From the IMG/VR virus record IMGVR_UViG_2695420398_000010: a DNA stretch of 28,240 bases, one strand, 5' to 3'. The notes beneath the pieces were generated by a model. It had not been told where the DNA came from and made no database searches. It worked only from the letters and a program-made list of their open reading frames with translations. This document shows, one piece after another, positions 2,015-27,799 of this stretch (its first letter is position 1; every line of letters begins with the position of its first letter). Both the position numbers and the translations under genes were made by a program. Origin of the DNA: a virus. Taxonomy: Duplodnaviria > Heunggongvirae > Uroviricota > Caudoviricetes.

Positions 2015-2509
2015 ATGGATCGAGAGTTGAAAAATCTGACGCTGAATATCAGTCAACTGGCGGCACTGTCAGGTGTACATCGCCAGACTGCTGCGGCAAG
2101 GCTGCAAAATCTACCCGTTGCAGGGGGGCATGAAAGCAACCTCAAGCTTTATCGGGTGGTTGATATTGTGTCGGCATTTCTGGCATTACCACCGCCGGTT
2201 GCAGAAGGCGAAATGGACGCGCATGAGCGCAAAGCCTGGTATCAGTCTGAACGTGAGCGTCTTAAGTTCGAACAGGAAACGGCACAACTCATTCCGGCCA
2301 GTGATGTCAGACGGGAGTTTGCCATCTGGGCAAAAGCGGTCGTGCAGGTGCTGGAGACATTACCGGATATTCTTGAACGTGACTGCGGTCTGCAGCCTGC
2401 CGCTGTGAGCCGTGTTCAGTCCATTATTGATGATCTGCGCGATCAGATAGCCCTGCGGGTGACTGAAGCAGGTGCGGATGATGAGGAGGAATTACAGCAG
2501 GAGGAGTAA
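2015..2509 (+). CDS. Terminase small subunit (Nu1-like, N-terminal HTH)
   Basis: 164 aa directly downstream of the cos-like region; predicted N-terminal helix-turn-helix and acidic C-terminus; stop overlaps the large terminase start (TAATG). Confidence 0.75.
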   Translation: MDRELKNLTLNISQLAALSGVHRQTAAARLQNLPVAGGHESNLKLYRVVDIVSAFLALPPPVAEGEMDAHERKAWYQSERERLKFEQETAQLIPASDVRREFAIWAKAVVQVLETLPDILERDCGLQPAAVSRVQSIIDDLRDQIALRVTEAGADDEEELQQEE

Positions 2510-4611: not shown

Positions 4612-4820
4612 ACCAGAATGATATCGAAGCCATGATTCAGCGTTATACGGAAGCTGAAATGGCGGTGCTGGACGGAAAATCCGTCACCTTTAATGGTCAG
4701 CAGATGACCATGGAAAACTTATCTGAGATCCGGCAGGGACGGCAGGAGTGGGAGCGCCGCCTTGCGGCTCTGATTACACGACGACGGGGGCATCCCGGGT
4801 ACCGGCTGGCGAGGTTCTGA
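4608..4820 (+). CDS. W: Head-tail joining protein, gpW-like
   Basis: About 70 aa following the terminase with a C-terminal RRRG.PG motif as in lambda gpW; start placed at ATG 4608 for better RBS spacing (track start 4602). Confidence 0.6.
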   Translation: MNQNDIEAMIQRYTEAEMAVLDGKSVTFNGQQMTMENLSEIRQGRQEWERRLAALITRRRGHPGYRLARF

Positions 4821-6328
4821 TGGCAATTCTTGATGATGTGATTGGCGTTTTTTCACCAGGATGGAAAGCGGCAAGGCTGCGTTCCCGTGCGGTGATCCAG
4901 GCTTATGAGGCCGTAAAAACGACGCGGACACACAAAGCCCGGCGGGAAAACCGAACTGCCGACCAGTTAAGCCAGTACGGGGCCGTGTCGTTACGTGAGC
5001 AGGCCCGTTACCTTGATAACAACCACGATCTGGTTATTGGTGTATTTGACAAGCTGGAAGAACGGGTGGTGGGGAAAAACGGGATTATTGTCGAGCCACA
5101 TCCGGTATTACGCAATGGGGCCATTGCCCGTGACCTGGCTGCGGAGATTCGCACCCGATGGAGTGAATGGTCTGTCAGCCCGGAAGTCACCGGGCAGTTT
5201 ACCCGTCCGATGCTGGAACGTCTGATGCTGCGTACCTGGCTGCGCGATGGTGAGGTGTTTGCCCAGATGGTTTCCGGGCGCATAAACAGCCTGACGCCTT
5301 CTGCCGGTGTTCATTTCTGGCTGGAGGCGCTCGAGCCGGACTTTATTCCCATGACCAGTGATGAGAGCAACAGGCTGAATCAGGGCGTGTTTGTTGATGA
5401 CTGGGGGCGTCCCGAAAAATATCTGGTGTATAAAAGCCGTCCCGTATCCGGACGGCAGATGGAAACCAAAGAAGTGGATGCAGAGCGAATGCTGCATCTT
5501 AAATTTGTTCGCCGTCTGCACCAGATGCGCGGGACGTCTTTGTTGTCCGGTGTGCTGATCCGCCTCAGTGCCCTGAAAGATTATGAAGATTATGAGCTGA
5601 CTGCAGCAAGGATCGCCGCTGCTCTGGGGATGTACATCCGCAAAGGCGACGGGCAGAGCTATGAACCGGATGGTAATGGCAGCAAGGAGAATGAACGCGA
5701 TCTTACCATTCAGCCAGGCATTATTTACGACGATCTGAAACCCGGCGAAGAAATCGGAATGGTGAAGTCGGATCGTCCCAATCCTAACCTTGAAACTTTT
5801 CGTAATGGTCAGTTGCGTGCCGTGGCGGCGGGCAGTCGTCTGAGTTTTTCCAGTACGGCACGCAACTATAACGGCACTTACAGCGCCCAGCGTCAGGAAC
5901 TGGTTGAGTCTACTGATGGCTACCTGATCCTGCAGGACTGGTTTATTGGTGCCGTCACCCGCCCGATGTATCGTGCCTGGCTGAAACAGGCTGTGGCATC
6001 CGGTGTTATCAGGCTACCCCGCGATCTTGACCGTTCTTCACTGTATACCGCGGTGTATTCCGGACCGGTGATGCCGTGGATTGACCCTGTTAAGGAGGCT
6101 GAGGCCTGGAAAATCCAGATTCGTGGTGGAGCGGCGACAGAATCAGACTGGGTACGTGCTGGTGGTCGTAATCCGGATGATGTCAAACGTCGGCGCAAGG
6201 CCGAAATTGATGAAAACCGCAAGCTGGATCTGGTATTTGATACCGATCCGGCCAGTGATAAAGGAGGCAGCAGTGCCGCAACGAAACGACATGAGCCGCA
6301 GCACACCGACGACCAGTCCGAAGAATAA
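4820..6328 (+). CDS. Portal protein (lambda gpB family)
   Basis: 503 aa from ATG 4820 (ATGA overlap with the W stop); the track ORF extends upstream to 4748 but that overlaps W. Position and size fit a portal. Confidence 0.85.
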   Translation: MAILDDVIGVFSPGWKAARLRSRAVIQAYEAVKTTRTHKARRENRTADQLSQYGAVSLREQARYLDNNHDLVIGVFDKLEERVVGKNGIIVEPHPVLRNGAIARDLAAEIRTRWSEWSVSPEVTGQFTRPMLERLMLRTWLRDGEVFAQMVSGRINSLTPSAGVHFWLEALEPDFIPMTSDESNRLNQGVFVDDWGRPEKYLVYKSRPVSGRQMETKEVDAERMLHLKFVRRLHQMRGTSLLSGVLIRLSALKDYEDYELTAARIAAALGMYIRKGDGQSYEPDGNGSKENERDLTIQPGIIYDDLKPGEEIGMVKSDRPNPNLETFRNGQLRAVAAGSRLSFSSTARNYNGTYSAQRQELVESTDGYLILQDWFIGAVTRPMYRAWLKQAVASGVIRLPRDLDRSSLYTAVYSGPVMPWIDPVKEAEAWKIQIRGGAATESDWVRAGGRNPDDVKRRRKAEIDENRKLDLVFDTDPASDKGGSSAATKRHEPQHTDDQSEE

Positions 6329-8300
6329 TTCCTGGTTCAGGATGCAGGCTGGTCACCAGAGTGACGCGGATATTTATATTTATGACGAGATTGGTTTCTG
6401 GGGTGTTACAGCGAAGCAGTTTATCAGTGATCTGAATGCACTGGGCGATATCACCCACATTAATCTCCATATTAATTCACCGGGTGGCGATGTCTTTGAA
6501 GGCATCGCCATTTTTAATGCGCTTAAAACACATGGTGCGTCCATTACCGTTTATGTCGACGGTGTGGCGGCGTCAATGGCGTCGGTCATTGCGATGGTGG
6601 GAAACCCGGTCATTATGCCGGAAAACACCTTCATGATGATTCATAAACCATTTGGCTTTACGGGCGGTGATGCGGAGGACATGCGCACCTATGCCGACCT
6701 GCTCGATAAGGTTGAGGCGGTTCTGTTACCCGCTTATGCACAGAAAACCGGGAAAACCACCGATGAAATTGCTGCCATGCTGGCGGATGAGACCTGGATG
6801 TCCGGTGCCGAATGTCTGGCACATGGATTTGCTGATCAGGTAACGCCAGCCGTTAAGGCAATGGCATGTATTCAGTCAAAACGTACAGAGGAATTTAAAA
6901 AGATGCCGGAATCCATTCGAAACATGATTACTCCGCCACGCAACAGTGCTCCACGCGTACAGGATGATGAACCTGCAGCCTCCCGGACGCCAGTGCAGGC
7001 AGCAGCACCCGTGGTGGATGAAAACAGTATCCGTGCGCAGGTACTGGCAGAGCAAAAAGCGCGTGTAAACGGTATTAATGATCTGTTTGCCATGTTTGGC
7101 GGGCGTTATCAGACACTGCAGGCTCAGTGTCTTGCCGATCCTGAATGTTCGCTGGAGCAGGCCCGCGAAAAGCTGTTGAACGAGATGGGGCGCGAGTCCA
7201 CGCCATCCAATAAAAATACCCCGGCTCATATTTATGCCGGTAACGGTAATTTTGTGGGGGACGGGATCCGCCAGGCGCTGATGGCGCGTGCCGGATTTGA
7301 AAAAACCGAACGTGATAATGTCTACAACGGGATGACCCTGCGTGAATATGCCCGTATGTCACTGACTGAACGGGGTATTGGGGTTTCCAGTTATAACCCG
7401 ATGCAGATGGTCGGTGCGGCGTTCACACACAGTACGTCTGACTTCGGTAATATTCTGCTGGATGTTGCGAATAAAGCCATTTTGCAGGGCTGGGAAGATG
7501 CCCCTGAAACCTATGAACAGTGGACGCGGAAAGGTCAGTTGTCTGATTTTAAAATTGCCCATCGTGTGGGTATGGGGGGCTTCAGTGCTCTGCGTCAGGT
7601 GCGTGAAGGGGCGGAATATAAATACGTCACCACCGGAGATAAACAGGCCACTATTGCACTGGCGACCTATGGCGAGCTGTTCAGTATCACCCGTCAGGCC
7701 ATTATCAATGATGATCTGAATATGCTGACCGATGTCCCGATGAAACTGGGCCGTGCGGCGAAATCCACTATTGCCGATCTGGTTTATGCCATTCTGACGT
7801 CTAACCCGAAAATCTCCACAGATAATGTAAGTCTGTTCGATAAAGCGAAACATGCAAACGTACTGGAGAGCGCGGCAATGGACGTGGCATCGCTGGATAA
7901 AGCCCGCCAGTTGATGCGCGTTCAGAAAGAGGGGGAGCGTCATCTGAATATTCGTCCTGCGTTCGTACTGGTACCGACGGCGATGGAGTCTGTTGCTAAC
8001 CAGGTCATTCGCTCCTCAAGTGTCAAGGGGGCTGACATTAACGCCGGTATTATTAATCCGGTGAAAGATTTTGCGACCGTTATTGCAGAGCCTCGTCTTG
8101 ATGATAACAGCCAGACCACCTTCTACCTGGCTGCGTCCAAAGGCTCCGATACGATTGAAGTGGCTTATCTCAACGGTGTGGATACGCCATATATTGATCA
8201 GATGGAGGGCTTCAGTGTGGATGGCGTGACAACGAAAGTGCGTATTGACGCTGGTGTCGCGCCAGTTGATCACCGCGGTCTGGTGAAATGTACGGCGTAA
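6273..8300 (+). CDS. Fused prohead protease (ClpP-like) / scaffold-like linker / major capsid protein
   Basis: Single uninterrupted frame; probable GTG start 6273 after AAGGAGG (alternative ATG 6291). N-terminal ClpP/S14-type protease region (GVAASMAS..., MIHKP), a charged linker, and a C-terminal major-capsid-like domain. Confidence 0.8.
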   Translation: MPQRNDMSRSTPTTSPKNNSWFRMQAGHQSDADIYIYDEIGFWGVTAKQFISDLNALGDITHINLHINSPGGDVFEGIAIFNALKTHGASITVYVDGVAASMASVIAMVGNPVIMPENTFMMIHKPFGFTGGDAEDMRTYADLLDKVEAVLLPAYAQKTGKTTDEIAAMLADETWMSGAECLAHGFADQVTPAVKAMACIQSKRTEEFKKMPESIRNMITPPRNSAPRVQDDEPAASRTPVQAAAPVVDENSIRAQVLAEQKARVNGINDLFAMFGGRYQTLQAQCLADPECSLEQAREKLLNEMGRESTPSNKNTPAHIYAGNGNFVGDGIRQALMARAGFEKTERDNVYNGMTLREYARMSLTERGIGVSSYNPMQMVGAAFTHSTSDFGNILLDVANKAILQGWEDAPETYEQWTRKGQLSDFKIAHRVGMGGFSALRQVREGAEYKYVTTGDKQATIALATYGELFSITRQAIINDDLNMLTDVPMKLGRAAKSTIADLVYAILTSNPKISTDNVSLFDKAKHANVLESAAMDVASLDKARQLMRVQKEGERHLNIRPAFVLVPTAMESVANQVIRSSSVKGADINAGIINPVKDFATVIAEPRLDDNSQTTFYLAASKGSDTIEVAYLNGVDTPYIDQMEGFSVDGVTTKVRIDAGVAPVDHRGLVKCTA

Positions 8301-11167: not shown

Positions 11168-11505
11168 CGCGGGAAATGCAGTTTGTCATGCGGCTTGCCC
11201 GGGAGTTCCGGCGGGCAGACTGGCGGCGGATGCTGTCGGAAATGTCGGCCACTGAGCTTGGTGAGTGGGGCGATTATTTCCGGATGCAGAGCTTCAGTGA
11301 TGTGTGGATGGATGCGCAGTTTGCCTCGCTGAAGGCATTGATCGTGAGAATGGTGTCCGGCAGCAGTGATGCTGCGGTGGCTGATTTCAGCCTTTTACCG
11401 GAAGAGAACGGGATACCGGAGCGAACGGACGAAGAACTGATGCATCTTGGGGAAGGTATTTCCGGAGGTGTGCGTTATGGACCAGATAGCCAACCTGGTC
11501 ATTGA
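11143..11505 (+). CDS. T: T-frame segment of the G-T tail assembly chaperone, reached by -1 frameshift from G
   Basis: The -1 frame is open from 11143 and overlaps the last 8 codons of G; an A-rich slip site CCGGAAAAG sits at about 11153-11161; the ORF continues to 11505 and overlaps the H start. Confidence 0.7.
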   Translation, partial: GADAGKVLTREMQFVMRLAREFRRADWRRMLSEMSATELGEWGDYFRMQSFSDVWMDAQFASLKALIVRMVSGSSDAAVADFSLLPEENGIPERTDEELMHLGEGISGGVRYGPDSQPGH

Positions 11506-14500
11506 TTTGGGGATTGATGCGGCAGAGTTTAAAAATGAAATTCCCCGTATCAAAAACCTTCTGAATGGTGCAGCCAGCGATGCAGAACGGTCTTCTGCCC
11601 GTATGCAGCGTTTTATGGAGCGTCAGACTCAGGCCGCCCGGCAGACAACGCAGGCGGCTTCTTCGGCTGCAACAGCCGCATCCGTCCATGCGCAGACGGT
11701 GGAGAAGAACGCACAGGCTCATGAACGCATGGCCCGTGAGGTGGAGAAAACCCGCCAGCGCATGGAGGCACTGAGCCAGAAAATGCGCGAGGAACAGGCG
11801 CAGGCCATGGCTCTGGCGGAGGCTCAGGATAAAGCGGCTGCTGCGTTTTATCGTCAGATTGACAGTGTGAAACAGGCCAGTGCGGGGCTGCAGGAATTAC
11901 AGCGTATTCAGCAGCAGATCCGACAGGCCAGAAACAGTGGCGGGATTGGTCAGCAGGATTATCTGGCGCTGATTTCTGAGGTTACGGCGAAAACCCGTGT
12001 TCTTACGCAGGCTGAGGAAGAGGCTACCCGACAGAAAGTGGCGTTTATCCGTCAGCTTAAAGAGCAGGCAACCCGCCAGAATCTTTCTTCTTCTGAGTTG
12101 CTTCGTGCCAAGGCTGCCCAGCTGGGGGTAAGCAGTGCTGCAGAAGTGTATATCCGCAAAATGGAGCAGGCAGGAAAAGCCACGCATTCGCTGGGTCTGA
12201 AAAGTGCAGCGGCCCGCCAGGAGATAGGCGTTCTGATAGGTGAACTGGCCCGCGGCAATTTAGGGGCGCTGAGGGGATCCGGGATAACGCTGGCTAACCG
12301 TGCCGGATGGATAGACACTCTGATGTCACCGAAAGGCATGATGCTTGGCGGGGTTATTGGCGGTATTGCCGCGGCCGTCTATGGTCTGGGTAAAGCCTGG
12401 TATGACGGTCAGAAGGAGGGGGAAGAATTTAACCGCCAGTTGTCGCTGACGGGGCATTATGCCGGAGTCACTGCCGGGCAGCTGTGGACGCTCAGTCGTG
12501 CTATTTCCGGGAATGGTATCACGCAACATGCTGCAGCCGGTGCGCTGGCTCAGGTGGTGGGGAGTGGTGCATTTCGTGGAAACGATATCGGTATGGTGGC
12601 GAGAGCTGCCGCACAGATGGAGCGATCGGTTGGCCAGTCGGTCAGCGATACCATAAATCAGTTTAAGCGGCTGAAGGATGATCCTGTAAATGCCGCGAAG
12701 GCTCTGGACAATGAGCTGCATTTTCTTACTGCCACTCAGCTTGAGCAGATACGTGTCCTTGGGGATCAGGGACGGTCCAGTGATGCTGCACGGATAGCCA
12801 TGTCTGCACTGGCAGAGGAAACCGGTCGGCGTACTGCGGATATTGATAATAACCTCAATGCGCTTGGCAGTACGCTGAAGTATCTGTCTGATTTGTGGAG
12901 TCGTTTCTGGGATGCGGCCATGAATATTGGTCGTGAAGACTCGCTGGATGAACAGATTGCCGCTTTACAGGAGAAAGTGTCGCGGGCGAAAAGACTCCCC
13001 TGGACGGCATCATCTTCTCAGGTTGAATACGATCAGCAGCGTCTTAACGATCTTCAGGAGAAAAAACGCCAGAAGGATTTGCAGGATGCAAAAGAGCAGG
13101 CAGAGCGGAATTATCAGGAGCAACAGAAACGACGTAATGCTGAAAATGCTGCACTGAACCGGATGAATGAAACGGAAGCAGCACGACATCAGCGTGAAAT
13201 TGCGCGTATTAATTCCATGCAGTACGCCGATCAGGCTGTCAGGGATGCAGCGATACAACGTGAAAATGAACGTTACGAGAAAGCCCTGGCATCCGGTAAG
13301 AAAAAAACACGCGAAACCCGTAATGATGAGGCCACCCGGTTATTGCTGCAGTACAGTCAGCAACAGGCACAGGTGGAAGGACAGATTGCTGCTGCAAGAC
13401 AGTCAGCAGGCATTGCCACTGACAGGATGACAGAAGCGCATAAACAGCTTCTGGCTCTGCAGCAGCGCATCAGCGATCTGGACGGGAAAAAACTGACGGC
13501 AGATGAAAAGAGTGTGCTGGCCCGTAAAGATGAACTGATTCAGGCACTGACGCTGCTGGATGTAAAACAGCAGGAGCTTCAGAAACAGACGGCACTCAAC
13601 GATCTGAAGAAAAAAACAATTCAGCTGACCAGTCAACTGGCTGAAGAAGAGCGCGCTCAGCGTCAGCAACATGACCTGGATATCGCCACGGTGGGTATGG
13701 GTGATCAGCAGCGGCAGCGATATCAGATACAACTGAGTCTTCGCCAGAAATACCAGCAACAGCTGGAGCAGTTGAGGCGGGATAGTGAGCAGAAAGGGAC
13801 ATATAACACGGATGACTACAGAAAGGCCGAGCAGGCGCTGACGGAGAGCCTGAACCGACAACTGAATGAGAATCGCCGTTACTGGCAACAGCTTGAAGTT
13901 ATGCAGGGTAACTGGAAAAACGGAGTCCTGCGTGCATTTCAGGATTTTACCGTGGATGCAGACAATACGGCAGGAATAGCAGAACAGGTGTTCTCGTCAG
14001 CCTTCAGCAACATGGGAAATGGCCTGGCAACTTTTGTCACTACCGGCAAACTCAACTTCAAATCCTTCACCTCTTCGGTGCTGTCAGATATGGCGAAAAT
14101 CCTGGCGCAGGCAACCATGATGAAATCGATAAAAGGGATTGGCAGTGTACTGGGATTTGATCTCAGCAGCCTTTCCCTGAATGCCAATGGGGGGATTTAT
14201 CAGTCTGCTGATTTGAGTCGTTACAGTGGCACGGTGGTTAACCGTCCGACGTTTTTTGCTTTTGCAAAAGGCGCGGGTGTGATGGGGGAAGCTGGACCTG
14301 AAGCCATTCTGCCACTGCGTCGTGGTGCTGACGGTAAGCTGGGGGTTGTGGCGGATATTGGTGGTTCAGGTATGGCGATGTTTGCCCCGCAGTACAACAT
14401 CGAGATCAATAACGATGGCACGAACGGGCAGATAGGTCCGGCTGCCCTGAAGGTGGTTTATGACCTTGGGAAAAAAGCGGCAGCGGACTTTATGCAACAG

Positions 14501-14542
14501 CAGGCCCGTGATGGTGGTCGGTTAAGTGGAGCATATCGGTAA
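11477..14542 (+). CDS. H: Tail tape measure protein H
   Basis: 1021 aa from ATG 11477 after a GGAGG RBS; long Gln/Ala/Arg-rich coiled-coil core, Gly-rich hydrophobic segment, and a C-terminus resembling lambda gpH (NNDGTNGQIGPAALK.VYD). Confidence 0.9.
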   Translation: MDQIANLVIDLGIDAAEFKNEIPRIKNLLNGAASDAERSSARMQRFMERQTQAARQTTQAASSAATAASVHAQTVEKNAQAHERMAREVEKTRQRMEALSQKMREEQAQAMALAEAQDKAAAAFYRQIDSVKQASAGLQELQRIQQQIRQARNSGGIGQQDYLALISEVTAKTRVLTQAEEEATRQKVAFIRQLKEQATRQNLSSSELLRAKAAQLGVSSAAEVYIRKMEQAGKATHSLGLKSAAARQEIGVLIGELARGNLGALRGSGITLANRAGWIDTLMSPKGMMLGGVIGGIAAAVYGLGKAWYDGQKEGEEFNRQLSLTGHYAGVTAGQLWTLSRAISGNGITQHAAAGALAQVVGSGAFRGNDIGMVARAAAQMERSVGQSVSDTINQFKRLKDDPVNAAKALDNELHFLTATQLEQIRVLGDQGRSSDAARIAMSALAEETGRRTADIDNNLNALGSTLKYLSDLWSRFWDAAMNIGREDSLDEQIAALQEKVSRAKRLPWTASSSQVEYDQQRLNDLQEKKRQKDLQDAKEQAERNYQEQQKRRNAENAALNRMNETEAARHQREIARINSMQYADQAVRDAAIQRENERYEKALASGKKKTRETRNDEATRLLLQYSQQQAQVEGQIAAARQSAGIATDRMTEAHKQLLALQQRISDLDGKKLTADEKSVLARKDELIQALTLLDVKQQELQKQTALNDLKKKTIQLTSQLAEEERAQRQQHDLDIATVGMGDQQRQRYQIQLSLRQKYQQQLEQLRRDSEQKGTYNTDDYRKAEQALTESLNRQLNENRRYWQQLEVMQGNWKNGVLRAFQDFTVDADNTAGIAEQVFSSAFSNMGNGLATFVTTGKLNFKSFTSSVLSDMAKILAQATMMKSIKGIGSVLGFDLSSLSLNANGGIYQSADLSRYSGTVVNRPTFFAFAKGAGVMGEAGPEAILPLRRGADGKLGVVADIGGSGMAMFAPQYNIEINNDGTNGQIGPAALKVVYDLGKKAAADFMQQQARDGGRLSGAYR

Positions 14543-16933: not shown

Positions 16934-19900
16934 ATGGGTAAAGGCAGCAGTAAGGGGCATACCCCGCGCGAAGCAAAGGACAACCTGAAGTCCACGCAGT
17001 TGCTGAGTGTGATCGATGCCATCAGCGAAGGGCCGGTTGAAGGTCCGGTGGATGGATTAAAAAGCGTGCTGCTGAACAGTACACCGGTGCTGGACAGTGA
17101 GGGGAATACTAACATCTCCGGTGTCACGGTGGTGTTCCGGGCAGGTGAGCAGGAACAGACACCGCCGGAGGGATTTGAATCATCAGGTTCCGAGACGGTA
17201 CTGGGTACGGAAGTGAAATACGACACGCCGATCACCCGGACCATCACGTCGGCAAACATTGACCGTCTGCGCTTTACCTTCGGTGTGCAGGCACTGGTGG
17301 AAACCACCTCAAAGGGGGACAGGAATCCGTCGGAAGTTCGCCTGCTGGTTCAGATACAACGTAACGGTGGCTGGGTGACGGAAAAAGACATCACCATTAA
17401 GGGCAAAACCACCTCGCAGTATCTGGCCTCGGTAGTGGTGGATAATTTGCCGCCGCGCCCGTTCAACATCCGGATGCGCAGGATGACGCCGGACAGCACC
17501 ACAGACCAGCTGCAGAACAAAACGCTCTGGTCGTCATACACCGAAATCATCGATGTGAAACAGTGCTACCCGAACACGGCACTGGTCGGCGTACAGGTGG
17601 ATTCGGAGCAGTTCGGCAGCCAGCAGGTGAGCCGTAATTATCATCTGCGCGGGCGCATTCTGCAGGTGCCGTCGAACTATAACCCGCAGACGCGGCAATA
17701 CAGCGGTATCTGGGACGGAACGTTTAAGCCAGCATACAGCAACAACATGGCCTGGTGTCTGTGGGATATGCTGACCCATCCGCGCTACGGCATGGGGAAA
17801 CGTCTTGGTGCGGCGGATGTGGACAAATGGGCGCTGTATGTCATCGGCCAGCATTGCGATCAGTCGGTGCCGGACGGTTTTGGCGGCACGGAGCCGCGCA
17901 TCACCTGTAATGCGTACCTGACCACACAGCGTAAGGCGTGGGATGTGCTCAGTGATTTCTGCTCGGCGATGCGCTGTATACCGGTATGGAACGGGCAGAC
18001 GCTGACGTTCGTGCAGGACCGACCGTCGGATAAGGCGTGGACCTATAACCGCAGTAATGTGGTGATGCCGGATGATGGCGCGCCGTTCCGCTACAGCTTC
18101 AGCGCCCTGAAGGACCGCCATAATGCCGTTGAGGTGAACTGGATTGACCCGGATAACGGCTGGGAGACGGCGACAGAGCTTGTGGAGGATACGCAGGCCA
18201 TTGCCCGTTACGGTCGTAACGTCACGAAGATGGATGCCTTTGGCTGTACCAGCCGGGGGCAGGCACACCGCGCCGGGCTGTGGCTGATTAAAACAGAACT
18301 GCTGGAAACGCAGACCGTGGACTTCAGCGTGGGTGCCGAAGGGCTTCGCCATGTACCGGGCGATGTCATTGAAATCTGCGATGATGACTATGCCGGTATC
18401 CGCACCGGCGGGCGCGTGCTGGCGGTAAACAGCCAGACCCGGACGCTGACGCTCGACCGTGAAATCACGCTGCCATCTTCCGGCACCACGCTGATAAGCC
18501 TGGTTGACGGGCAGGGGAGTCCGGTCAGCGTGGAGGTTCAGTCCGTCACCGACGGCGTGAAGGTGAAAGTGAGCCGTGTTCCTGACGGCGTTGCTGAATA
18601 CAGCGTATGGGGGCTGAAGTTGCCGACGCTGCGCCAGCGCCTGTTCCGCTGTGTGAGTATCCGTGAGAACGACGACGGCACGTATGCCATCACTGCCGTG
18701 CAGCATGTACCGGAGAAAGAAGCCATCGTGGATAACGGGGCGCACTTTGACGGTGACCAGAGCGGCACGGTGAATGGTGTCACGCCGCCAGCAGTGCAGC
18801 ATCTGACCGCCGAAGTCACCGCAGACAGCGGGGAATATCAGGTGCTGGCGCGATGGGACACGCCGAAGGTGGTGAAGGGCGTGAGCTTTATGCTTCGCCT
18901 GACCGTGGCAGCGGATGACGGCAGTGAGCGGCTGGTCAGCACGGCCAGGACGACGGAAACCACATACCGCTTCACGCAACTGGCGCTGGGGAACTACAGG
19001 CTGACGGTCCGGGCGGTAAATGCGTGGGGACAGCAGGGCGATCCGGCGTCGGTATCGTTCCGGATCGCCGCACCGGCAGCACCGTCGCGGATTGAGCTGA
19101 CGCCGGGCTATTTTCAGATAACCGCAACGCCGCATCTTGCGGTTTATGATCCGACGGTACAGTTTGAGTTCTGGTTCTCGGAAAAGCGGATTACCGATAT
19201 CAGGCAGGTTGAAACCACAGCCCGCTATCTTGGCACGGGGCTGTACTGGATAGCCGCCAGTATCAATATCAAACCGGGCCATGATTATTATTTTTACGTT
19301 CGCAGTGTGAACACCGTTGGCAAATCGGCATTCGTGGAGGCTGTTGGTCAGCCGAGTGATGACGCATCCGGCTATCTGGATTTTTTCAAAGGCGAGATAG
19401 GGAAAACCCATCTAGCTCAGGAGCTGTGGACGCAGATTGATAACGGTCAGCTTGCGCCTGACCTGGCTGAAATCAGGACGTCCATTACGGATGTCAGCAA
19501 TGAAATCACGCAGACCGTCAATAAGAAACTGGAAGACCAGAGTGCGGCAATTCAGCAGATACAGAAGGTTCAGGTTGATACAAATAATAACCTGAACAGC
19601 ATGTGGGCCGTGAAACTGCAGCAGATGCAGGACGGACGCCTTTATATTGCGGGTATCGGTGCCGGTATTGAGAATACGCCAGCAGGAATGCAGAGTCAGG
19701 TGCTGCTGGCGGCAGACAGGATTGCGATGATTAATCCTGCGAATGGCAACACAAAGCCGATGTTTGTTGGTCAGGGTGATCAGATATTCATGAACGACGT
19801 GTTCCTGAAATATCTGACGGCTCCCACCATTACCAGCGGCGGTAATCCTCCGGTATTTTCCCTGACACCGGACGGGCGGCTGACGGCGAAAAATGCCGAT

Positions 19901-20413
19901 ATCAGCGGTAACGTGAATGCGAACTCCGGGACGCTCAACAACGTCACGATTAACGAGAACTGTCGGGTTCTGGGAAAACTGTCCGCCAACCAGATTGAAG
20001 GCGATCTCGTTAAAACAGTGGGCAAAGCTTTCCCCCGGGACTCCCGTGCACCGGAACGGTGGCCATCAGGGACCATCACCGTCAGGGTTTATGACGATCA
20101 GCCGTTTGACCGGCAGATTGTTATTCCGGCGGTGGCATTCAGCGGCGCTAAACATGAGCGGGAGAATAACGATATTTATTCGTCATGCCGCCTGATAGTA
20201 CGGAAAAACGGTGCTGAAATTTATAACCGTACCGCGCTGGATAATACGCTGATTTACAGTGGTGTTATTGATATGCCTGCCGGTCACGGTCACATGACAC
20301 TGGAGTTTTCGGTGTCAGCATGGCTGGTAAATAACTGGTATCCCACAGCAAGTATCAGCGATTTGCTGGTTGTGGTGATGAAGAAAGCCACTGCAGGCAT
20401 CACGATTAGCTGA
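16934..20413 (+). CDS. J: Tail tip / host specificity protein J (central tail fibre)
   Basis: 1159 aa; N-terminal roughly 880 residues near-identical to lambda gpJ as recalled; the C-terminal roughly 280 residues (receptor-binding region) are clearly more divergent. Confidence 0.95.
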
Positions 20414-20432
20414 ATTTTATAACCCAGATACG

Positions 20433-20457
20433 GGCGCCAGAAATGGCGCCTTTTTTA
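20433..20457 (+). terminator. Rho-independent terminator after J
   Basis: GGCGCC-AGAAAT-GGCGCC followed by TTTTTT. Confidence 0.5.
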
Positions 20458-21144: not shown

Positions 21145-24100
21145 ATGGCAGTACGGATTTCAGGTGTACTGAAAGATGGCGCAGGTAAGCCGATACAAAA
21201 CTGCACCATTCAGCTAAAGGCCAGGCGCAACAGCACCACGGTGGTGGTGAACACAGTGGCCTCAGAAAACCCGGATGAAGCCGGGCGTTACAGCATGGAC
21301 GTTGAGTACGGTCAGTACAGCGTTATTCTGTTGGTGGAAGGATTCCCGCCGTCACATGCCGGGATCATCACCGTGTATGAAGATTCCCAACCCGGTACGC
21401 TGAATGATTTTCTCGGTGCCATGACGGAGGATGATGCCCGTCCTGAGGCACTGCGCCGTTTTGAACTGATGGTGGAAGAGGTGGCGCGTAACGCGTCCGC
21501 AGTGGCACAGAACACGGCAGCCGCGAAGAAGTCAGCCGGCGATGCCGGCACATCTGCCCGTGAGGCGGCAACCCATGCGACTGATGCTGCAGGCTCAGCA
21601 CGCGCAGCCAGCACGTCAGCCGGACAGGCCGCTTCGTCGGCTCAGTCAGCGTCTTCCAGCGCAGGAACGGCATCAACAAAGGCCACTGAGGCATCGAAAA
21701 GTGCTGCTGCTGCAGAGTCCTCAAAAAGCGCGGCAGCTACCAGTGCCAGTGCCGCGAAAACGTCAGAAACGAATGCTGCAGCGTCACAACAATCAGCAGC
21801 CACTTCTGCATCCACCGCGACTACGAAAGCGTCAGAAGCTGCCACCTCAGCCCGGGATGCGGCGGCTTCAAAAGAGGCGGCAAAATCATCAGAAACGAAC
21901 GCATCCTCGAGCGCCAGTAGCGCAGCTTCCTCGGCAACGGCGACAGCAAATTCTGCGAAGGCGGCCAAAACGTCCGAGACGAACGCCAGGTCTTCTGAAA
22001 CGGCAGCGGGACAGAGTGCCTCAGCTGCGGCAGGCTCAAAAACAGCGGCTGCGTCGTCTGCCAGCGCCGCGTCAACAAGTGCCGGGCAGGCCTCAGCCAG
22101 TGCCACCGCCGCCGGAAAATCGGCAGAAAGCGCCGCATCATCCGCTTCAACAGCCACAACGAAGGCTGGCGAAGCCACTGAGCAGGCCAGCGCAGCAGCG
22201 AGGTCAGCTTCCGCAGCGAAGACATCCGAAACGAACGCGAAAGCGTCGGAAACCCGTGCAGAATCCTCAAAAACGGCTGCTGCATCGTCCGCCAGTTCGG
22301 CGGCGTCATCGGCATCATCTGCGTCTGCTTCAAAAGATGAGGCGAGCAGACAGGCATCAGCAGCGAAAGGCAGCGCCAAGACGGCATCCACGAAGGCGAC
22401 AGAGGCAGCTGGCAGTGCGACGGCGGCAGCTCAGAGCAAAAGTACGGCGGAATCCGCGGCAACGCGCGCTGAGACAGCGGCAAAACGGGCAGAGGATATT
22501 GCATCCGCCGTGGCGCTTGAGGATGCGAGCACGACGAAAAAGGGGATAGTACAGCTCAGCAGTGCGACCAACAGCACTTCCGAGTCACTGGCGGCAACGC
22601 CAAAAGCCGTTAAGGCCGCGTATGACCTGGCTAACGGGAAATACACCGCACAGGATGCAACGACAGCACAGAAAGGGATAATCCAGCTAAGCAGCGCGAC
22701 CAACAGCACGTCTGAAACGCTGGCGGCAACGCCAAAGGCAGTAAAATCAGCCTATGACAATGCAGAGAAACGTCTGCAGAAAGACCAGAACGGCGCTGAT
22801 ATACCCGATAAGGGACGCTTCCTGAACAACATTAACGCGGTCAGTAAAACAGACTTTGCTGATAAGCGTGGTATGCGTTATGTGCGGGTTAACGCTCCTG
22901 CAGGTGCAACATCTGGAAAATATTACCCTGTTGTTGTTATGCGTTCTGCTGGCTCAGTAAGCGAACTGGCATCAAGGGTCATTATCACCACGGCAACGCG
23001 AACCGCAGGCGATCCGATGAATAACTGCGAGTTTAACGGATTTGTTATGCCTGGTGGCTGGACTGACAGGGGGCGTTATGCTTATGGAATGTTCTGGCAA
23101 TATCAAAACAATGAACGAGCCATCCACTCAATAATGATGAGTAATAAGGGCGATGATTTGCGCTCTGTGTTCTATGTTGATGGCGCTGCTTTCCCTGTTT
23201 TTGCGTTTATCGAAGATGGCCTGTCAATATCCGCACCTGGTGCTGATCTCGTTGTTAATGATACGACCTATAAGTTTGGGGCAACAAATCCAGCGACTGA
23301 ATGTATCGCGGCGGACGTTATCCTTGATTTTAAGAGTGGGCGTGGTTTTTATGAGTCTCATTCGTTAATCGTTAACGATAACTTGTCGTGCAAAAAACTT
23401 TTTGCCACAGACGAAATTGTAGCGCGTGGTGGTAATCAGATTCGAATGATAGGTGGGGAGTATGGTGCATTATGGCGTAATGATGGCGCTAAAACTTACC
23501 TGCTGCTTACCAATCAAGGTGATGTTTATGGTGGCTGGAATACATTAAGACCGTTTGCTATTGATAACGCAACCGGCGAACTGGTTATTGGAACCAAACT
23601 GTCCGCAAGTCTGAACGGTAATGCATTAACAGCAACAAAGCTGCAAACGCCAAGACTGGTTTCTGGTGTTGAGTTTGATGGTTCCAAAGATATTACTTTA
23701 ACCGCCGCGCATGTGGCTGCTTTTGCCAGAAGGGCAACGGATACATATGCCGATGCGGATGGTGGCGTTCCCTGGAATGCCGAATCAGGCGCTTATAATG
23801 TCACCCGCTCTGGCGACAGCTATATTCTGGTTAACTTCTATACCGGAGTCGGAAGTTGCCGGACATTGCAGATGAAGGCGCATTACAGAAATGGTGGTCT
23901 GTTCTACCGTTCTTCAAGAGACGGTTATGGTTTTGAAGAAGACTGGGCAGAAGTTTATACCTCGAAAAATCTTCCACCAGAAAGCTACCCAGTAGGCGCA
24001 CCAATCCCGTGGCCATCAGATACCGTTCCGTCTGGCTATGCCCTGATGCAGGGGCAGGCTTTTGACAAATCTGCTTACCCGAAACTCGCAGCCGCTTATC

Positions 24101-24690
24101 CGTCAGGCGTGATCCCTGATATGCGTGGCTGGACGATTAAGGGCAAACCTGCCAGTGGTCGTGCCGTATTGTCTCAGGAACAGGACGGCATTAAATCGCA
24201 CACCCACAGCGCCAGCGCATCCAGTACGGATTTGGGGACGAAAACCACATCGTCGTTTGATTACGGCACTAAATCCACGAATAACACCGGGGCGCATACG
24301 CACAGTCTGAGTGGCTCTACGGGGTCTGCCGGTGCTCATACTCATGGTAATGGTATTCGTTGGCCAGGAGGCGGCGGTTCTGCGTTAGCATTTTATGATG
24401 GCGGTGGGTTCACTTATGTCAAGGATTCACAGTATCAAGTAAGCCCGGGGACTTCTTCCAGTAGATCGTATTATCAACGTATTCAGACACAGTCAGCAGG
24501 TGCTCATACCCACTCGCTGTCTGGTACTGCAGCAAGTTCTGGCGCACATGCACATACTGTAGGTATTGGTGCGCATACGCACTCGGTTGCGATTGGCTCA
24601 CATGGACACACCATCACCGTTAACGCTGCGGGTAACGCGGAAAACACCGTCAAAAACATCGCATTTAACTATATTGTGAGGCTTGCATAA
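21145..24690 (+). CDS. stf: Side tail fibre protein Stf (mosaic, 1181 aa)
   Basis: N-terminus near-identical to lambda Stf as recalled; long Ala/Ser/Thr-rich repeat shaft; a central block not shared with lambda Stf; C-terminal His-box repeats (GAHTHS, GAHAHT, GSHGHT) and an end matching lambda Stf ([22 protein letters not shown]). Confidence 0.85.
21500..22500 (+). repeat. In-frame degenerate tandem repeats encoding the Ala/Ser-rich Stf shaft
   Basis: Reiterated motifs such as [19 protein letters not shown] and ATTKA[GS]EA at the protein level; the low-complexity GC-rich DNA creates long phantom ORFs in other frames and on the opposite strand. Confidence 0.55.
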
Positions 24691-25274
24691 TGGCATTCAG
24701 AATGAGTGAACAACCACGGACCATAACAATTTATAATCTGCTGGCCGGAACTAATGAATTTATTGGTGAAGGTGACGCATATATTCCGCCTCATACAGGT
24801 CTGCCAGCAAACAGTACCGATATTGCACCGCCAGATATTCCGGCTGGCTTTGTGGCTGTTTTCAACAGTGATGAGGCATCGTGGCATCTCGTTGAAGACC
24901 ATCGGGGTAAAACGGTCTATGACGTGGCTTCCGGCGACGCGTTATTTATTTCTGAACTCGGCTCATTACCGGAAAATGTCACCTGGTTATCCCCGGAAGG
25001 GGAGTTTCAGAAGTGGAACGGTACAGTCTGGGTGAAGGATACGGAAGCAGAAAAACTGTTCCGGATCCGGGAGGCGGAAGAAACAAAAAACAGCCTGATG
25101 CAGGTAGCCAGTGAGCATATAGCGCCGCTTCAGGATGCTGTAGATCTGGAGATTGCAACGGAAGAAGAGGCGTCGTTGCTGGAAGCCTGGAAGAAGTATC
25201 GGGTGTTGCTGAACCGTGTTGATACATCAACTGCACCTGATATTGAGTGGCCTGCTGTCCCTGTTATGGAGTAA
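24690..25274 (+). CDS. tfa: Tail fibre assembly protein Tfa
   Basis: 194 aa, same length as lambda Tfa and near-identical to it as recalled; start overlaps the stf stop (TAATG). Confidence 0.9.
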
Positions 25275-25402: not shown

Positions 25403-26635
25403 TCAATTGTTCATAGTGTTTACATCACCGCCAATTGCTTTTAAGACTGAACGCATGAAATATGGTTTTTCGTCATGTTTTGAGTCTGCTGTTGATATTT
25501 CTAAAGTCGGTTTTTTTTCTTCGTTTTCTCTAACTATTTTCCATGAAATACATTTTTGATTATTATTTGAATCAATTCCAATTACCTGAAGTCTTTCATC
25601 TATAATTGGCATTGTATGTATTGGTTTATTGGAGTAGATGCTTGCTTTTCTGAGCCATAGCTCTGATATCCAAATGAAGCCATAGGCATTTGTTATTTTG
25701 GCTCTGTCAGCTGCATAACGCCAAAAAATATATTTATCTGCTTGATCTTCAAATGTTGTATTGATTAAATCAATTGGATGGAATTGTTTATCATAAAAAA
25801 TTAATGTTTGAATGTGATAACCGTCCTTTAAAAAAGTCGTTTCTGCAAGCTTGGCTGTATAGTCAACTAACTCTTCTGTCGAAGTGATATTTTTAGGCTT
25901 ATCTACCAGTTTTAGACGCTCTTTAATATCTTCAGGAATTATTTTATTGTCATATTGTATCATGCTAAATGACAATTTGCTTATGGAGTAATCTTTTAAT
26001 TTTAAATAAGTTATTCTCCTGGCTTCATCAAATAAAGAGTCGAATGATGTTGGCGAAATCACATCGTCACCCATTGGATTGTTTATTTGTATGCCAAGAG
26101 AGTTACAGCAGTTATACATTCTGCCATAGATTATAGCTAAGGCATGTAATAATTCGTAATCTTTTAGCGTATTAGCGACCCATCGTCTTTCTGATTTAAT
26201 AATAGATGATTCAGTTAAATATGAAGGTAATTTCTTTTGTGCAAGTCTGACTAACTTTTTTATACCAATGTTTAACATACTTTCATTTGTAATAAACTCA
26301 ATGTCATTTTCTTCAATGTAAGATGAAATAAGAGTAGCCTTTGCCTCGCTATACATTTCTAAATCGCCTTGTTTTTCTATCGTATTGCGAGAATTTTTAG
26401 CCCAAGCCATTAATGGATCATTTTTCCATTTTTCAATAACATTATTGTTATACCAAATGTCATATCCTATAATCTGGTTTTTGTTTTTTTGAATAATAAA
26501 TGTTACTGTTCTTGCGGTTTGGAGGAATTGATTCAAATTCAAGCGGAATAATTCAGGGTCAAAATATGTATCAATGCAGCATTTGAGCAAGTGCGATAAA
26601 TCTTTAAGTCTTCTTTCCCATGGTTTTTTAGTCAT
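25403..26635 (-). CDS. ea47: Ea47-like protein of unknown function (AT-rich accessory gene)
   Basis: Long uninterrupted minus-strand ORF in visibly AT-rich DNA; starting at the third in-frame Met (MTKKPWERRL, GGAGAG RBS upstream) gives 410 aa / 1233 nt, the size of lambda ea47, and the 128-nt gap from tfa matches lambda; track ORF extends to 26662 (419 aa). No Walker A, HNH or HEPN motif seen by eye. Confidence 0.6.
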   Translation of the reverse strand: MTKKPWERRLKDLSHLLKCCIDTYFDPELFRLNLNQFLQTARTVTFIIQKNKNQIIGYDIWYNNNVIEKWKNDPLMAWAKNSRNTIEKQGDLEMYSEAKATLISSYIEENDIEFITNESMLNIGIKKLVRLAQKKLPSYLTESSIIKSERRWVANTLKDYELLHALAIIYGRMYNCCNSLGIQINNPMGDDVISPTSFDSLFDEARRITYLKLKDYSISKLSFSMIQYDNKIIPEDIKERLKLVDKPKNITSTEELVDYTAKLAETTFLKDGYHIQTLIFYDKQFHPIDLINTTFEDQADKYIFWRYAADRAKITNAYGFIWISELWLRKASIYSNKPIHTMPIIDERLQVIGIDSNNNQKCISWKIVRENEEKKPTLEISTADSKHDEKPYFMRSVLKAIGGDVNTMNN

Positions 26636-26811
26636 AAAACTCTCCATTTTGATAGGTTGCATGCTAGATGCTGATATATTTTAGAGGTGATAAAATTAAC
26701 TGCTTAACTGTCAATGTAATACAAGTTGTTTGATCTTTGCAATGATTCTTATCAGAAACCATATAGTAAATTAGTTACACAGGAAATTTTTAATATTATT
26801 ATTATCATTCA

Positions 26812-27466: not shown

Positions 27467-27799
27467 ATGTCTGTCACAATTCAGGGAAATACCTCAACCG
27501 TTATTTCAAACAACTCCGCCCCGGAAGGAACATCAGAAATAGCCAAAATCACAAGACAAATTCAGGTGCTGACTGAAAAGCTTGGGAAAATCTCATCGGA
27601 AGAGGGGATGACGACACAGCAGAAAAAAGAAATGGCTGCATTGGTACAGAAGCAAATTGAAAGCCTCAGGGCTCAACTGGAGCAGTTGTTAAGGCAGCAG
27701 GCAGAGAAAAAGAATGAAGACGCGACAGTTCAGCCTGATAAAAAAGAAGAGAAAAAAGACGATACAAATACCGCTGGCACCATTGATATTTACGTCTAA
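27467..27799 (+). CDS. flxA: FlxA-like small coiled-coil protein
   Basis: 110 aa with a Ser/Thr-rich N-terminus, central heptad-like coiled-coil and Lys/Glu-rich C-terminus; size and architecture match prophage FlxA-family proteins and it carries a sigma-28-type promoter; strong RBS. Confidence 0.55.
   Translation: MSVTIQGNTSTVISNNSAPEGTSEIAKITRQIQVLTEKLGKISSEEGMTTQQKKEMAALVQKQIESLRAQLEQLLRQQAEKKNEDATVQPDKKEEKKDDTNTAGTIDIYV

What the first reader, a model, noticed from the sequence alone, without database searches (positions are those of the whole stretch)
19330..20413. Lambda-like J with a divergent C-terminal receptor-binding region
The first roughly 880 residues of J look near-identical to lambda gpJ as I recall it, but the last roughly 280 residues, which in lambda determine LamB recognition, are much more divergent (many substitutions from about ...GYLDFFKG onward). 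This pattern of a conserved body with a swapped tip is typical of host-range switching and predicts a receptor other than, or a variant of, LamB.
Basis: partly seen in the sequence, partly recalled or inferred. Interest (0 to 1): 0.5.

Follow-up and report, generated by a model that had tools for sequence, protein, structure and literature searches.

The report
Lambda-like tail tip with OmpC-type end
This prophage's tail-tip protein J has the lambda body but carries the receptor-binding end that is commonest among E. coli prophages; a near-identical copy of that end has been shown to use the porin OmpC instead of LamB, so the finding is real but ordinary.

Summary
J (16934-20413, 1159 aa) is 96.9% identical to lambda J over residues 1-812 and 49.6% over residues 813-1159. 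The break falls exactly at GYLDFFKG (residue 813), not at about residue 880.

The divergent part has three modules:
- a helical shaft 28 residues longer than lambda's
- a re-conserved lower prism (residues 921-1000, 84% identical to lambda)
- the receptor-binding domain (RBD; residues 1001-1159, 43% identical to lambda)

The RBD is 100% identical to phage vB_EcoS-640R1 and 98% to VT1-Sakai. It matches the RBD of the engineered chimera gpJ-1A2 except for three residues in one loop. That chimera delivers DNA into lamB/ompC-deleted E. coli only when a suitable OmpC allele is supplied (20 of 23 alleles; not K-12 OmpC). The most likely receptor is therefore OmpC, not LamB. This is an inference; it was not assayed for this variant.

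This RBD class occurs in 3386 of 5426 complete E. coli genomes. Lambda's own RBD occurs in 98. Lambda is the outlier, not this phage. The exact protein is already in RefSeq as WP_053890520.1, annotated as J.

Verdict: modular J mosaicism, already known, low interest. The only open point is whether the R1076/N1078/N1079 loop variant changes which OmpC alleles are recognised.

The parts
16934..20413 (+). Gene J: central tail fibre / tip attachment protein, 1159 aa plus stop codon.
   Evidence: ORF list and translation. Six Pfam J domains score above their cut-offs: FNIII-A_GpJ 86-207, Phage-tail_3 330-498, Ig_J 610-714, Ig_J_second 716-818, Phage_Tail_Tip 872-1000, Ig_GpJ_C 1029-1159. The exact sequence is RefSeq WP_053890520.1.
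16934..19369 (+). Conserved body, residues 1-812 (hub domains and two FNIII/Ig domains). Lambda / phage 21 type.
   Evidence: 96.9% identical to lambda, 98% to phage 21 and to 640R1. Only 71% identical to VT1-Sakai over the part of this segment covered by the VT1-Sakai C-terminal fragment used, and 77% to phi330.
19370..19693 (+). Divergent shaft segment, residues 813-920 (alpha-helical shaft and upper prism). Phage 21 / VT1-Sakai type, 28 residues longer than lambda's.
   Evidence: 45% identical to lambda with a 28-residue gap in lambda. 96% identical to phage 21, 98% to VT1-Sakai, 99% to 640R1. The lambda shaft is residues 809-861 according to PMC11101478.
19694..19933 (+). Re-conserved lower prism, residues 921-1000. 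This is the junction where RBD modules are exchanged.
   Evidence: 84% identical to lambda and 96-98% to phage 21, 640R1 and VT1-Sakai. The published chimeras were fused at lambda residue 964, which is window residue 992 (19907-19909). [quoted passage not shown]
19934..20410 (+). Receptor-binding domain, residues 1001-1159. VT1-Sakai / gpJ-1A2 class; predicted receptor is OmpC.
   Evidence: Identity: 43% to lambda, 70% to phage 21, 66% to phi330, 98% to VT1-Sakai, 100% to 640R1. The DNA breakpoint against phage 21 lies at about 19984-20013. 150 of the 167 residues after the fusion point are found as exact 5-mers in the published gpJ-1A2 sequence. Pfam Ig_GpJ_C matches. PDB matches: 9wca (A8 gpJ) at E = 2.6e-126 and 8xcj (lambda J) at E = 4.7e-105.
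20039..20062 (+). RBD loop, residues 1036-1043 (DSRAPERW). Four residues longer than in phage 21 and phi330.
   Evidence: Alignment. It is equivalent to phi330 loop T918-Y921, described for phi330 in PMC12502783.
20156..20173 (+). RBD loop, residues 1075-1080 (ERENND). It is five residues shorter than in phage 21 and phi330. It holds the only three RBD differences from VT1-Sakai and 1A2: R1076K, N1078H, N1079T.
   Evidence: It aligns with phi330 hairpin E953-S962, which an AlphaFold3 model in PMC12502783 places inside the OmpC barrel.
20327..20344 (+). RBD loop, residues 1132-1137 (VNNWYP). This is the second spot where sequences of this RBD class vary (N/G/D at residue 1134).
   Evidence: It aligns with phi330 hairpin A1015-P1020, predicted to contact the OmpC rim.
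20432..20451 (+). Intrinsic-terminator-like hairpin followed by a T-run, just after J.
   Evidence: A terminator is annotated at the same place after phage 21 J.

Best explanation
J is an intact lambda-family central tail fibre assembled from interchangeable modules:
- a lambda / phage 21-type body (residues 1-812)
- a phage 21 / VT1-Sakai-type shaft and prism (residues 813-1000)
- a VT1-Sakai / gpJ-1A2-class receptor-binding domain (residues 1001-1159)

Shown here: the module boundaries, the identities, the domain architecture and the prevalence.

Inferred from a near-identical RBD tested by others: the trimeric tip binds the trimeric porin OmpC rather than LamB. It probably accepts most natural OmpC alleles but not the K-12 allele.

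Inferred by analogy with the lambda-LamB cryo-EM work: the distal loops of each RBD enter or clasp one porin barrel. Binding spreads the base of the RBD trimer and twists the prism. The helical shaft flips, the FNIII arms are released and the tail tube opens for DNA ejection.
For: - Segment identities and DNA breakpoints.
- Pfam architecture, including the C-terminal receptor-binding domain family.
- Match to solved J tips (9wca A8 gpJ, 8xcj lambda J).
- The published gpJ-1A2 sequence (PMC11338833, supplement 1) translates after the fusion point to the VT1-Sakai RBD: 154 of 167 residues are verified by exact 5-mers. It matches the window RBD at 150 of 167. The only readable difference is KEHT versus RENN at residues 1076-1079.
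- 1A2 particles delivered DNA into MG1655 lacking lamB and ompC only when OmpC was supplied from a plasmid. 20 of 23 natural alleles gave 76-99% GFP-positive cells at the top MOI. The other three (G1, G2, G40) gave 0.9-2%.
- 1A2 gave 98.7% delivery into MG1655 carrying the EDL933 OmpC, against 5.2% into wild-type MG1655.
- The side fibre in those particles was replaced by an LPS-binding P2 chimera, so the OmpC dependence comes from gpJ.
- The ORF is intact and has the normal M-L-K-I-J-lom-stf-tfa context.
- Phage vB_EcoS-640R1 carries the identical RBD.
- Conformational mechanism for lambda: PMC11101478.
Against: - Nothing was assayed for this exact protein.
- The three substitutions relative to 1A2 lie in the loop that, in a 66%-identical homologue, an AlphaFold3 model (not an experiment) places inside the OmpC barrel. 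Allele range, or even the choice of porin, could therefore differ.
- Receptor choice in this family is labile. Phage 21 is reported to gain OmpC use through a single J mutation. The phi330 (OmpC) and phage 21 (LamB) RBDs are 81% identical.
- The 1A2 sequence was read from a machine-read PDF with dropped bases. 13 of the 167 residues could not be verified.
- 1A2 is a chimera on a lambda shaft, whereas this J has the longer shaft.
- In the held source file for Extended Data Fig. 2 of that paper, the 1A2 and A8 values in panel C repeat those in panel B. [quoted passage not shown] 1 instead.
Confidence: 0.8

Rival explanations
1. The tip still uses LamB, as phage 21 does, and the divergence from lambda is neutral or reflects tuning to LamB alleles.
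For: Phage 21 J shares this protein's shaft and prism at 96% identity. Its RBD is 70% identical to this one and only 49% to lambda's. LamB is nevertheless reported as its native receptor (PMC11336670).
Against: The 98%-identical 1A2 / VT1-Sakai RBD works in a lamB deletion strain, and its activity follows the OmpC allele supplied. Wild-type MG1655, which carries lamB and the K-12 OmpC, was barely transduced by 1A2 (5.2%) but was transduced by wild-type lambda particles (97.7%). The RBD breakpoint against phage 21 lies at about residue 1017-1027, so the binding loops are not the phage 21 ones.
Confidence: 0.05
2. The RENN loop variant (R1076, N1078, N1079), shared with 640R1, recognises a different set of OmpC alleles than 1A2, or a different porin such as OmpF.
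For: All three RBD differences from 1A2 fall in one loop. That loop aligns with the phi330 hairpin predicted to enter the OmpC barrel. Among eight RBDs of this class, variation clusters in this loop and at residue 1134 in a second predicted contact loop. This pattern is what diversifying pressure on receptor contacts would produce. A8 and 1A2 differ in which alleles they accept.
Against: The three changes are moderate (R/K, N/H, N/T) and the loop length is unchanged. The rest of the RBD is identical. No data show that this variant behaves differently.
Confidence: 0.12
3. The gene is a relic in a decaying prophage and has no current function.
For: Many J genes in E. coli prophages are defective. 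The VT1-Sakai J itself is annotated as two truncated CDSs, 'truncated protein by a mutation'.
Against: The ORF is uninterrupted over 1159 codons. All six J domains score well above their Pfam cut-offs. The full late operon from lysis genes to tfa is present. A phage record (640R1) has a 99% identical J.
Confidence: 0.03

Closest known systems
Bacteriophage lambda gpJ (NP_040600 / P03749; PDB 8iyk, 8xcj, 8xck)
   Same: Same gene position and the same six-domain architecture. 96.9% identical over residues 1-812 and 84% over the lower prism. Presumably the same trimeric fibre and the same trigger mechanism.
   Different: The shaft is 28 residues longer and 45% identical. The RBD is 43% identical. 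Lambda binds LamB. Lambda's RBD is rare in nature: 98 of 5426 complete genomes, and all five records displayed were laboratory or DE3-type strains.
Engineered gpJ-1A2 chimera (Eligo Bioscience; PMC11338833), whose RBD is of the VT1-Sakai (Sp15) type
   Same: The RBD downstream of the fusion point matches at 150 of 167 residues verified (98% identity against VT1-Sakai). The tested receptor is OmpC, independent of LamB. 20 of 23 alleles were accepted; K-12 OmpC was not.
   Different: Three loop residues differ (R1076K, N1078H, N1079T). 1A2 carries lambda's shorter shaft and prism up to residue 964, and its DNA is recoded (67% nucleotide identity). The VT1-Sakai J gene is annotated as two truncated CDSs.
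Escherichia phage vB_EcoS-640R1 J (ON470612, URC10086)
   Same: 96.6% nucleotide identity and 99% protein identity over the whole gene. The RBD is 100% identical, including the RENN loop. The downstream lom and stf arrangement is the same.
   Different: Four substitutions in residues 813-1000. I found no receptor data for this phage.
Phage 21 J (OL657228, UMO75436)
   Same: 98% identical over the body and 96% over the shaft and prism, including the extra 28 residues.
   Different: The RBD is 70% identical and two loops differ in length. Its native receptor is reported as LamB, with OmpC and OmpF use evolving through a few J mutations (PMC11336670).
phi330 J (PV189401) and the A8 gpJ chimera (PDB 9wca, 9wcb)
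   Same: Same fold family. Both use OmpC: phi330 by knockout and complementation (PMC12502783), A8 by allele-dependent delivery. The best PDB sequence match to the window tip is 9wca.
   Different: The RBD is only 66% identical. The barrel-entering hairpin is five residues longer and the first loop four residues shorter. A8 accepts K-12 OmpC and 1A2 does not.

Membership tests
Lambda-type central tail fibre / tip attachment protein J | Full J domain series: FNIII-A, hub (Phage-tail_3), two Ig/FNIII domains, tail-tip prism, C-terminal Ig-like RBD. | tested here: met
   All six Pfam families score above their curated cut-offs and occur in the expected order.
Lambda-type central tail fibre / tip attachment protein J | Position in the tail operon: tape measure, M, L, K, I, then J, followed by lom, stf and tfa. 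| tested here: met
   ORF layout of the window, Pfam hits for Lom, Stf and Tfa, PGAP annotation of a 97%-identical prophage and the lambda map.
Lambda-type central tail fibre / tip attachment protein J | High sequence identity to lambda gpJ in the hub and FNIII body. | tested here: met
   787 of 812 residues identical.
Lambda-type central tail fibre / tip attachment protein J | Forms a trimer at the tail tip and triggers DNA ejection on receptor binding. | not testable with these tools
   Known for lambda from cryo-EM (PMC11101478). Inferred here from homology.
   139 of 250 = 55.6% identical; 40.5% over the Pfam RBD region, residues 1029-1159.
LamB-specific lambda RBD | Adsorption and infection depend on LamB. 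| not testable with these tools
   The near-identical 1A2 RBD works without LamB, which argues against LamB dependence.
OmpC-specific gpJ RBD class (1A2 / VT1-Sakai type) | RBD sequence essentially identical to gpJ-1A2 downstream of the fusion point (lambda residue 964). | tested here: met
   150 of 167 residues verified identical. Three substitutions fall in one loop. 13 residues are unreadable because bases were dropped from the supplement text. 98% identical to VT1-Sakai over residues 1001-1159.
OmpC-specific gpJ RBD class (1A2 / VT1-Sakai type) | DNA delivery depends on OmpC and on its allele, in a lamB-deleted host. | not testable with these tools
   Shown for 1A2 in PMC11338833. Not assayed for the RENN variant.

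The most novel reading that the evidence does not exclude
The RENN loop variant (R1076, N1078, N1079), shared with phage 640R1, is a natural specificity switch within the OmpC-binding class. It would change which OmpC alleles (for example the K-12 type) or which porin the tip accepts. The two variable loops (residues 1076-1079 and 1134) would then mark an ongoing arms race with OmpC surface loops across E. coli.
Probability: 0.15. Interest if true: 0.3.

Novelty: already known. Interest (0 to 1): 0.1.

Why it matters
It matters little for discovery. Exchange of C-terminal modules in lambdoid J proteins is textbook biology. This exact protein is already in RefSeq, and the receptor of its RBD class has been determined experimentally on a near-identical copy.

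It is useful for annotation. This prophage's particles should be expected to need OmpC, not LamB, and probably will not plate on K-12 strains carrying the native ompC. That bears on the choice of indicator strain for induction experiments.

It is also a reminder that lambda's LamB-binding tip is unusual among E. coli prophages.

Tried and rejected
- **Literature on the closest sequenced phages.** A search for PhiR55_1 found nothing. The PhiR phage panel (Brenes and Laub 2025) appears in PMC13190303, but that paper gives dependence on ManYZ only, not the outer-membrane receptor. I did not search specifically for receptor data on 640R1 or 2G7b, and none turned up in the papers read.
- **Reviews and receptor-prediction work.** The STEC phage review lists only BamA, FadL and LamB claims for other Stx phages. 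The 2026 receptor-prediction preprint covers Drexlerviridae-type GpJ and explicitly leaves out lambda's RBD.
- **Publication behind PDB 9wca.** No paper on it was in the library.
- **Structure prediction.** A single-sequence AlphaFold2 model of residues 1001-1159 gave mean pLDDT 47.7, too poor to use, so I ran no fold search. It is all-beta, and its three longest inter-strand gaps (model residues 30-44, 71-82, 130-142) overlap the three loops discussed. I give that no weight.
- **Large protein-database search.** The sequence matches to solved J tips (E = 1e-126 and 1e-105) and to Pfam PF12421 already settle the fold.
- **Embedded ORFs.** Mechanical ORFs inside the J 3' region (19780-20079 on the minus strand; 19917-20195 on the plus strand) have nothing to support them, and I dismissed them.
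- **Reading the 1A2 sequence.** Direct tblastn broke at dropped bases in the PDF text. I replaced it with an exact 5-mer coverage test over all three reading frames.
- **Missing files.** I exported the alignments through the alignment tools instead.
Full report
**Observation**

The finding lies in the 3' third of a single ORF, 16934-20413 (+), which encodes a 1159-aa protein. I fetched lambda (NC_001416) and compared its J protein (1132 aa) with this one.
- Overall identity is 83%, but it is very unevenly spread.
- Residues 1-812 are 787/812 = 96.9% identical, with no gaps.
- Residues 813-1159 are 172/347 = 49.6% identical, and 28 residues have no counterpart in lambda. Fisher exact p = 3e-80.
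- DNA identity to lambda starts to fall at 19330-19390.

The coordinates and the substance of the observation are therefore right. The residue counts (880 and 280) are off by about 70.

**Anatomy**

Pfam finds the complete J domain series, all above the curated cut-offs: FNIII-A_GpJ 86-207, Phage-tail_3 330-498, Ig_J 610-714, Ig_J_second 716-818, Phage_Tail_Tip 872-1000 and Ig_GpJ_C 1029-1159. Pfam describes the last as the C-terminal receptor-binding domain.

The lambda cryo-EM paper (PMC11101478) describes, after the two FNIII domains, an alpha-helical shaft (residues 809-861), a beta-sheet prism and an Ig-like receptor-binding domain (RBD) with four distal loops. On that map the divergent 347 residues split into three parts:
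- Shaft and upper prism, residues 813-920: 45% identical to lambda, and the site of the 28 extra residues.
- Lower prism, residues 921-1000: conservation returns to 84%, with 37 of 40 identical at 961-1000.
- RBD, residues 1001-1159: 43% identical.

A terminator-like hairpin follows the stop codon at 20432-20451, where phage 21 has an annotated terminator. The gene sits in the usual order: tape measure, M, L, K, I, J, lom, stf, tfa.

**Mosaic relationships**

I aligned J from lambda, phage 21, vB_EcoS-640R1, VT1-Sakai and phi330 with this one at protein level and DNA level.

| Segment (residues) | lambda | phage 21 | 640R1 | VT1-Sakai | phi330 |
|---|---|---|---|---|---|
| Body, 1-812 | 97% | 98% | 98% | 71%* | 77% |
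| Shaft, 813-920 | 45% | 96% | 99% | 98% | 60% |
| Lower prism, 921-1000 | 84% | 96% | 96% | 98% | 78% |
| RBD, 1001-1159 | 43% | 70% | 100% | 98% | 66% |

*Over the part of this segment covered by the VT1-Sakai C-terminal fragment used.

- The body is the lambda / phage 21 / 640R1 type.
- In the shaft and prism, lambda is the odd one out. It is the only one lacking the 28 residues.
- DNA breakpoints: about 19330-19390 against lambda, about 19984-20013 against phage 21, and about 19054 against VT1-Sakai.

This is the usual patchwork of lambdoid tail genes, with exchange points in stretches of conserved sequence.

**Receptor**

Three relatives have experimental receptor assignments.
- Lambda uses LamB.
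- Phage 21 is reported to use LamB natively and to gain OmpC and then OmpF use through a few J mutations (PMC11336670).
- phi330 fails to plate on an ompC knockout and recovers on complementation (PMC12502783).

The decisive comparison came from the PDB search. The best sequence match to the window tip is 9wca, 'A8 gpJ 713'. That led to the Eligo/Bikard paper (PMC11338833). There, C-terminal parts of natural gpJ variants were fused to lambda gpJ at residue 964, and two chimeras, A8 and 1A2, were characterised.

Supplement 1 of that paper prints the GpJ 1A2 DNA. It is recoded (67% nucleotide identity to the window), and the machine-read text has dropped bases, so a plain tblastn alignment broke at frameshifts. 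An exact 5-mer test over all three frames gave the following for the 167 residues after the fusion point:
- 154 are verifiably identical to VT1-Sakai.
- 150 are verifiably identical to the window.
- The only readable difference from the window is KHEKEHTD against the window's KHERENND.
- By the same test, phage 21 reaches 70 residues, phi330 47 and lambda 19.

So 1A2 carries the VT1-Sakai-class RBD. The window RBD differs from it at R1076K, N1078H and N1079T.

**What 1A2 does**

The 1A2 particles carried an LPS-binding P2 side-fibre chimera, which removes any OmpC binding by Stf.
- Recipients were MG1655 lacking both lamB and ompC, with an OmpC allele supplied on a plasmid.
- 20 of 23 natural OmpC alleles gave 76-99% GFP-positive cells at the highest MOI.
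- Alleles G1, G2 and G40 gave 0.9-2%.
- Delivery was 98.7% into MG1655 carrying the EDL933 OmpC. It was 5.2% into wild-type MG1655, which wild-type lambda particles transduced at 97.7%.
- The authors state that 1A2 efficiently delivers only to the EDL933 variant of the two tested in detail.

The RBD class found here is therefore independent of LamB, dependent on OmpC and sensitive to the OmpC allele. One caution: in the held source file for Extended Data Fig. 2, the 1A2 and A8 values in panel C repeat those in panel B. [quoted passage not shown] 1 instead.

**Fine variation**

The three differences from 1A2 sit in the loop at residues 1075-1080. This loop aligns with phi330 hairpin E953-S962, which an AlphaFold3 model in PMC12502783 places inside the OmpC barrel. 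That is a prediction on a 66%-identical homologue, not a measurement.

I compared eight RBDs of this class: the window, 640R1, VT1-Sakai, 2G7b, PhiR5_1, PhiR55_1, PhiR46_1 and an Stx2a phage.
- Variation inside the RBD clusters at residues 1076-1079 and at 1134.
- Residue 1134 lies in the loop equivalent to the second predicted contact hairpin of phi330 (A1015-P1020).
- The window and 640R1 alone have NN at 1078-1079. The other six have HT.

This pattern fits tuning of OmpC allele range, but it has not been tested.

**Prevalence**

- The last 480 nt of the gene match 3386 of 5426 complete E. coli genomes, with a median of 2 copies per genome that has any. 360 records match at 99% or better and 1903 at 95-99%.
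- The same stretch of lambda J matches 98 genomes, all at 99% or better. All five records displayed were laboratory or DE3-type strains.
- The exact 1159-aa protein is RefSeq WP_053890520.1, 'phage attachment tail tip protein J', in a 90%-identity cluster of 6699 members.
- Prophages about 97% identical to the first 25 kb of the window occur in about 1000 complete genomes.

**Mechanism**

Shown here: J is a modular protein with a lambda body and a 1A2-class RBD.

Inferred at about 0.8 confidence: the RBD trimer docks on an OmpC trimer.

Inferred by analogy with lambda and LamB (PMC11101478): the distal loops enter the porin lumen, the base of the RBD trimer spreads, the prism twists, the shaft flips, the FNIII arms come away and the tube opens. 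The shaft here is 28 residues longer than lambda's. I cannot assess what effect that has. It is the common state among the relatives compared.

**Rival explanations**

- LamB is retained, as in phage 21 (0.05). The 1A2 data in a lamB deletion host argue against it.
- The RENN variant has a different allele range or uses a different porin (0.12). This stays open because the three substitutions fall in a putative contact loop, and receptor choice in this family can change with single mutations.
- The gene is a non-functional relic (0.03). The ORF is intact, the operon is complete and phage 640R1 has a 99%-identical J.

**Verdict**

The feature is ordinary: modular exchange of the J tip, with an RBD class that is the commonest in E. 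coli and already has an experimentally assigned receptor. It is already known and of low interest.

**What led nowhere**

- Literature on PhiR55_1 and the PhiR phage panel gave no outer-membrane receptor data.
- A general receptor-prediction preprint excludes lambda-type RBDs.
- No paper on PDB 9wca was in the library.
- The single-sequence AlphaFold2 model was too poor to use (mean pLDDT 47.7), so I ran no fold search.

Noticed in passing
window 25403-26662 (-): A 419-aa ORF lies in a low-GC stretch (33-37% GC against 51-61% GC in the tail genes), just downstream of tfa. It has no Pfam or PADLOC hit. It matches PHROG 19262 (unknown function) end to end at E = 3e-295. This is the usual position for prophage cargo or defence genes. 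A 97%-identical prophage in E. coli 94EC carries an RnlA/RnlB toxin-antitoxin pair there instead.
   Followed up: partly
window 21145-25274 (+): A large side tail fibre gene (Stf, 1181 aa; phage_tail_N, Gp34_trimer and Collar domains) and a tail fibre assembly gene (Tfa, 194 aa) follow lom. They form a second, independent host-range determinant of this prophage. Its target was not examined.
   Followed up: no
window 20156-20173 and 20327-20344; loci L004, L005, L007-L011: Among eight RBDs of this class, amino-acid variation clusters at residues 1076-1079 and at 1134. These loops align with the two phi330 hairpins predicted to contact OmpC. The pattern suggests diversifying selection on receptor contacts.
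   Followed up: partly
L001 18424-18903 compared with window 19934-20413: Lambda's own RBD sequence is found in only 98 of 5426 complete E. coli genomes, all at 99% identity or better; the five records displayed were all laboratory or DE3-type strains. The window's RBD class is in 3386. The textbook LamB-binding tip is the rare one.
   Followed up: yes
window 2015-8300 and 11447-14542: The head and packaging module is not lambda-like. It has a DUF1441-type small terminase, a 700-aa large terminase and a ClpP-like protease / major capsid fusion protein. The tape measure ORF is 1031 aa, against 853 aa in lambda. The near-lambda J body therefore sits in an otherwise different virion module set.
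   Followed up: partly
window 27467-27799 (+): A FlxA-like protein (Pfam PF14282, E = 1e-14) lies near the right end of the window, beyond the low-GC cargo region.
   Followed up: no
L003 (phage 21) and L002 (phi330), RBD regions: The phage 21 and phi330 RBDs are 81% identical and have the same loop lengths. Yet they are reported to use different native receptors (LamB and OmpC). Percentage identity is a weak predictor of receptor in this family.
   Followed up: partly
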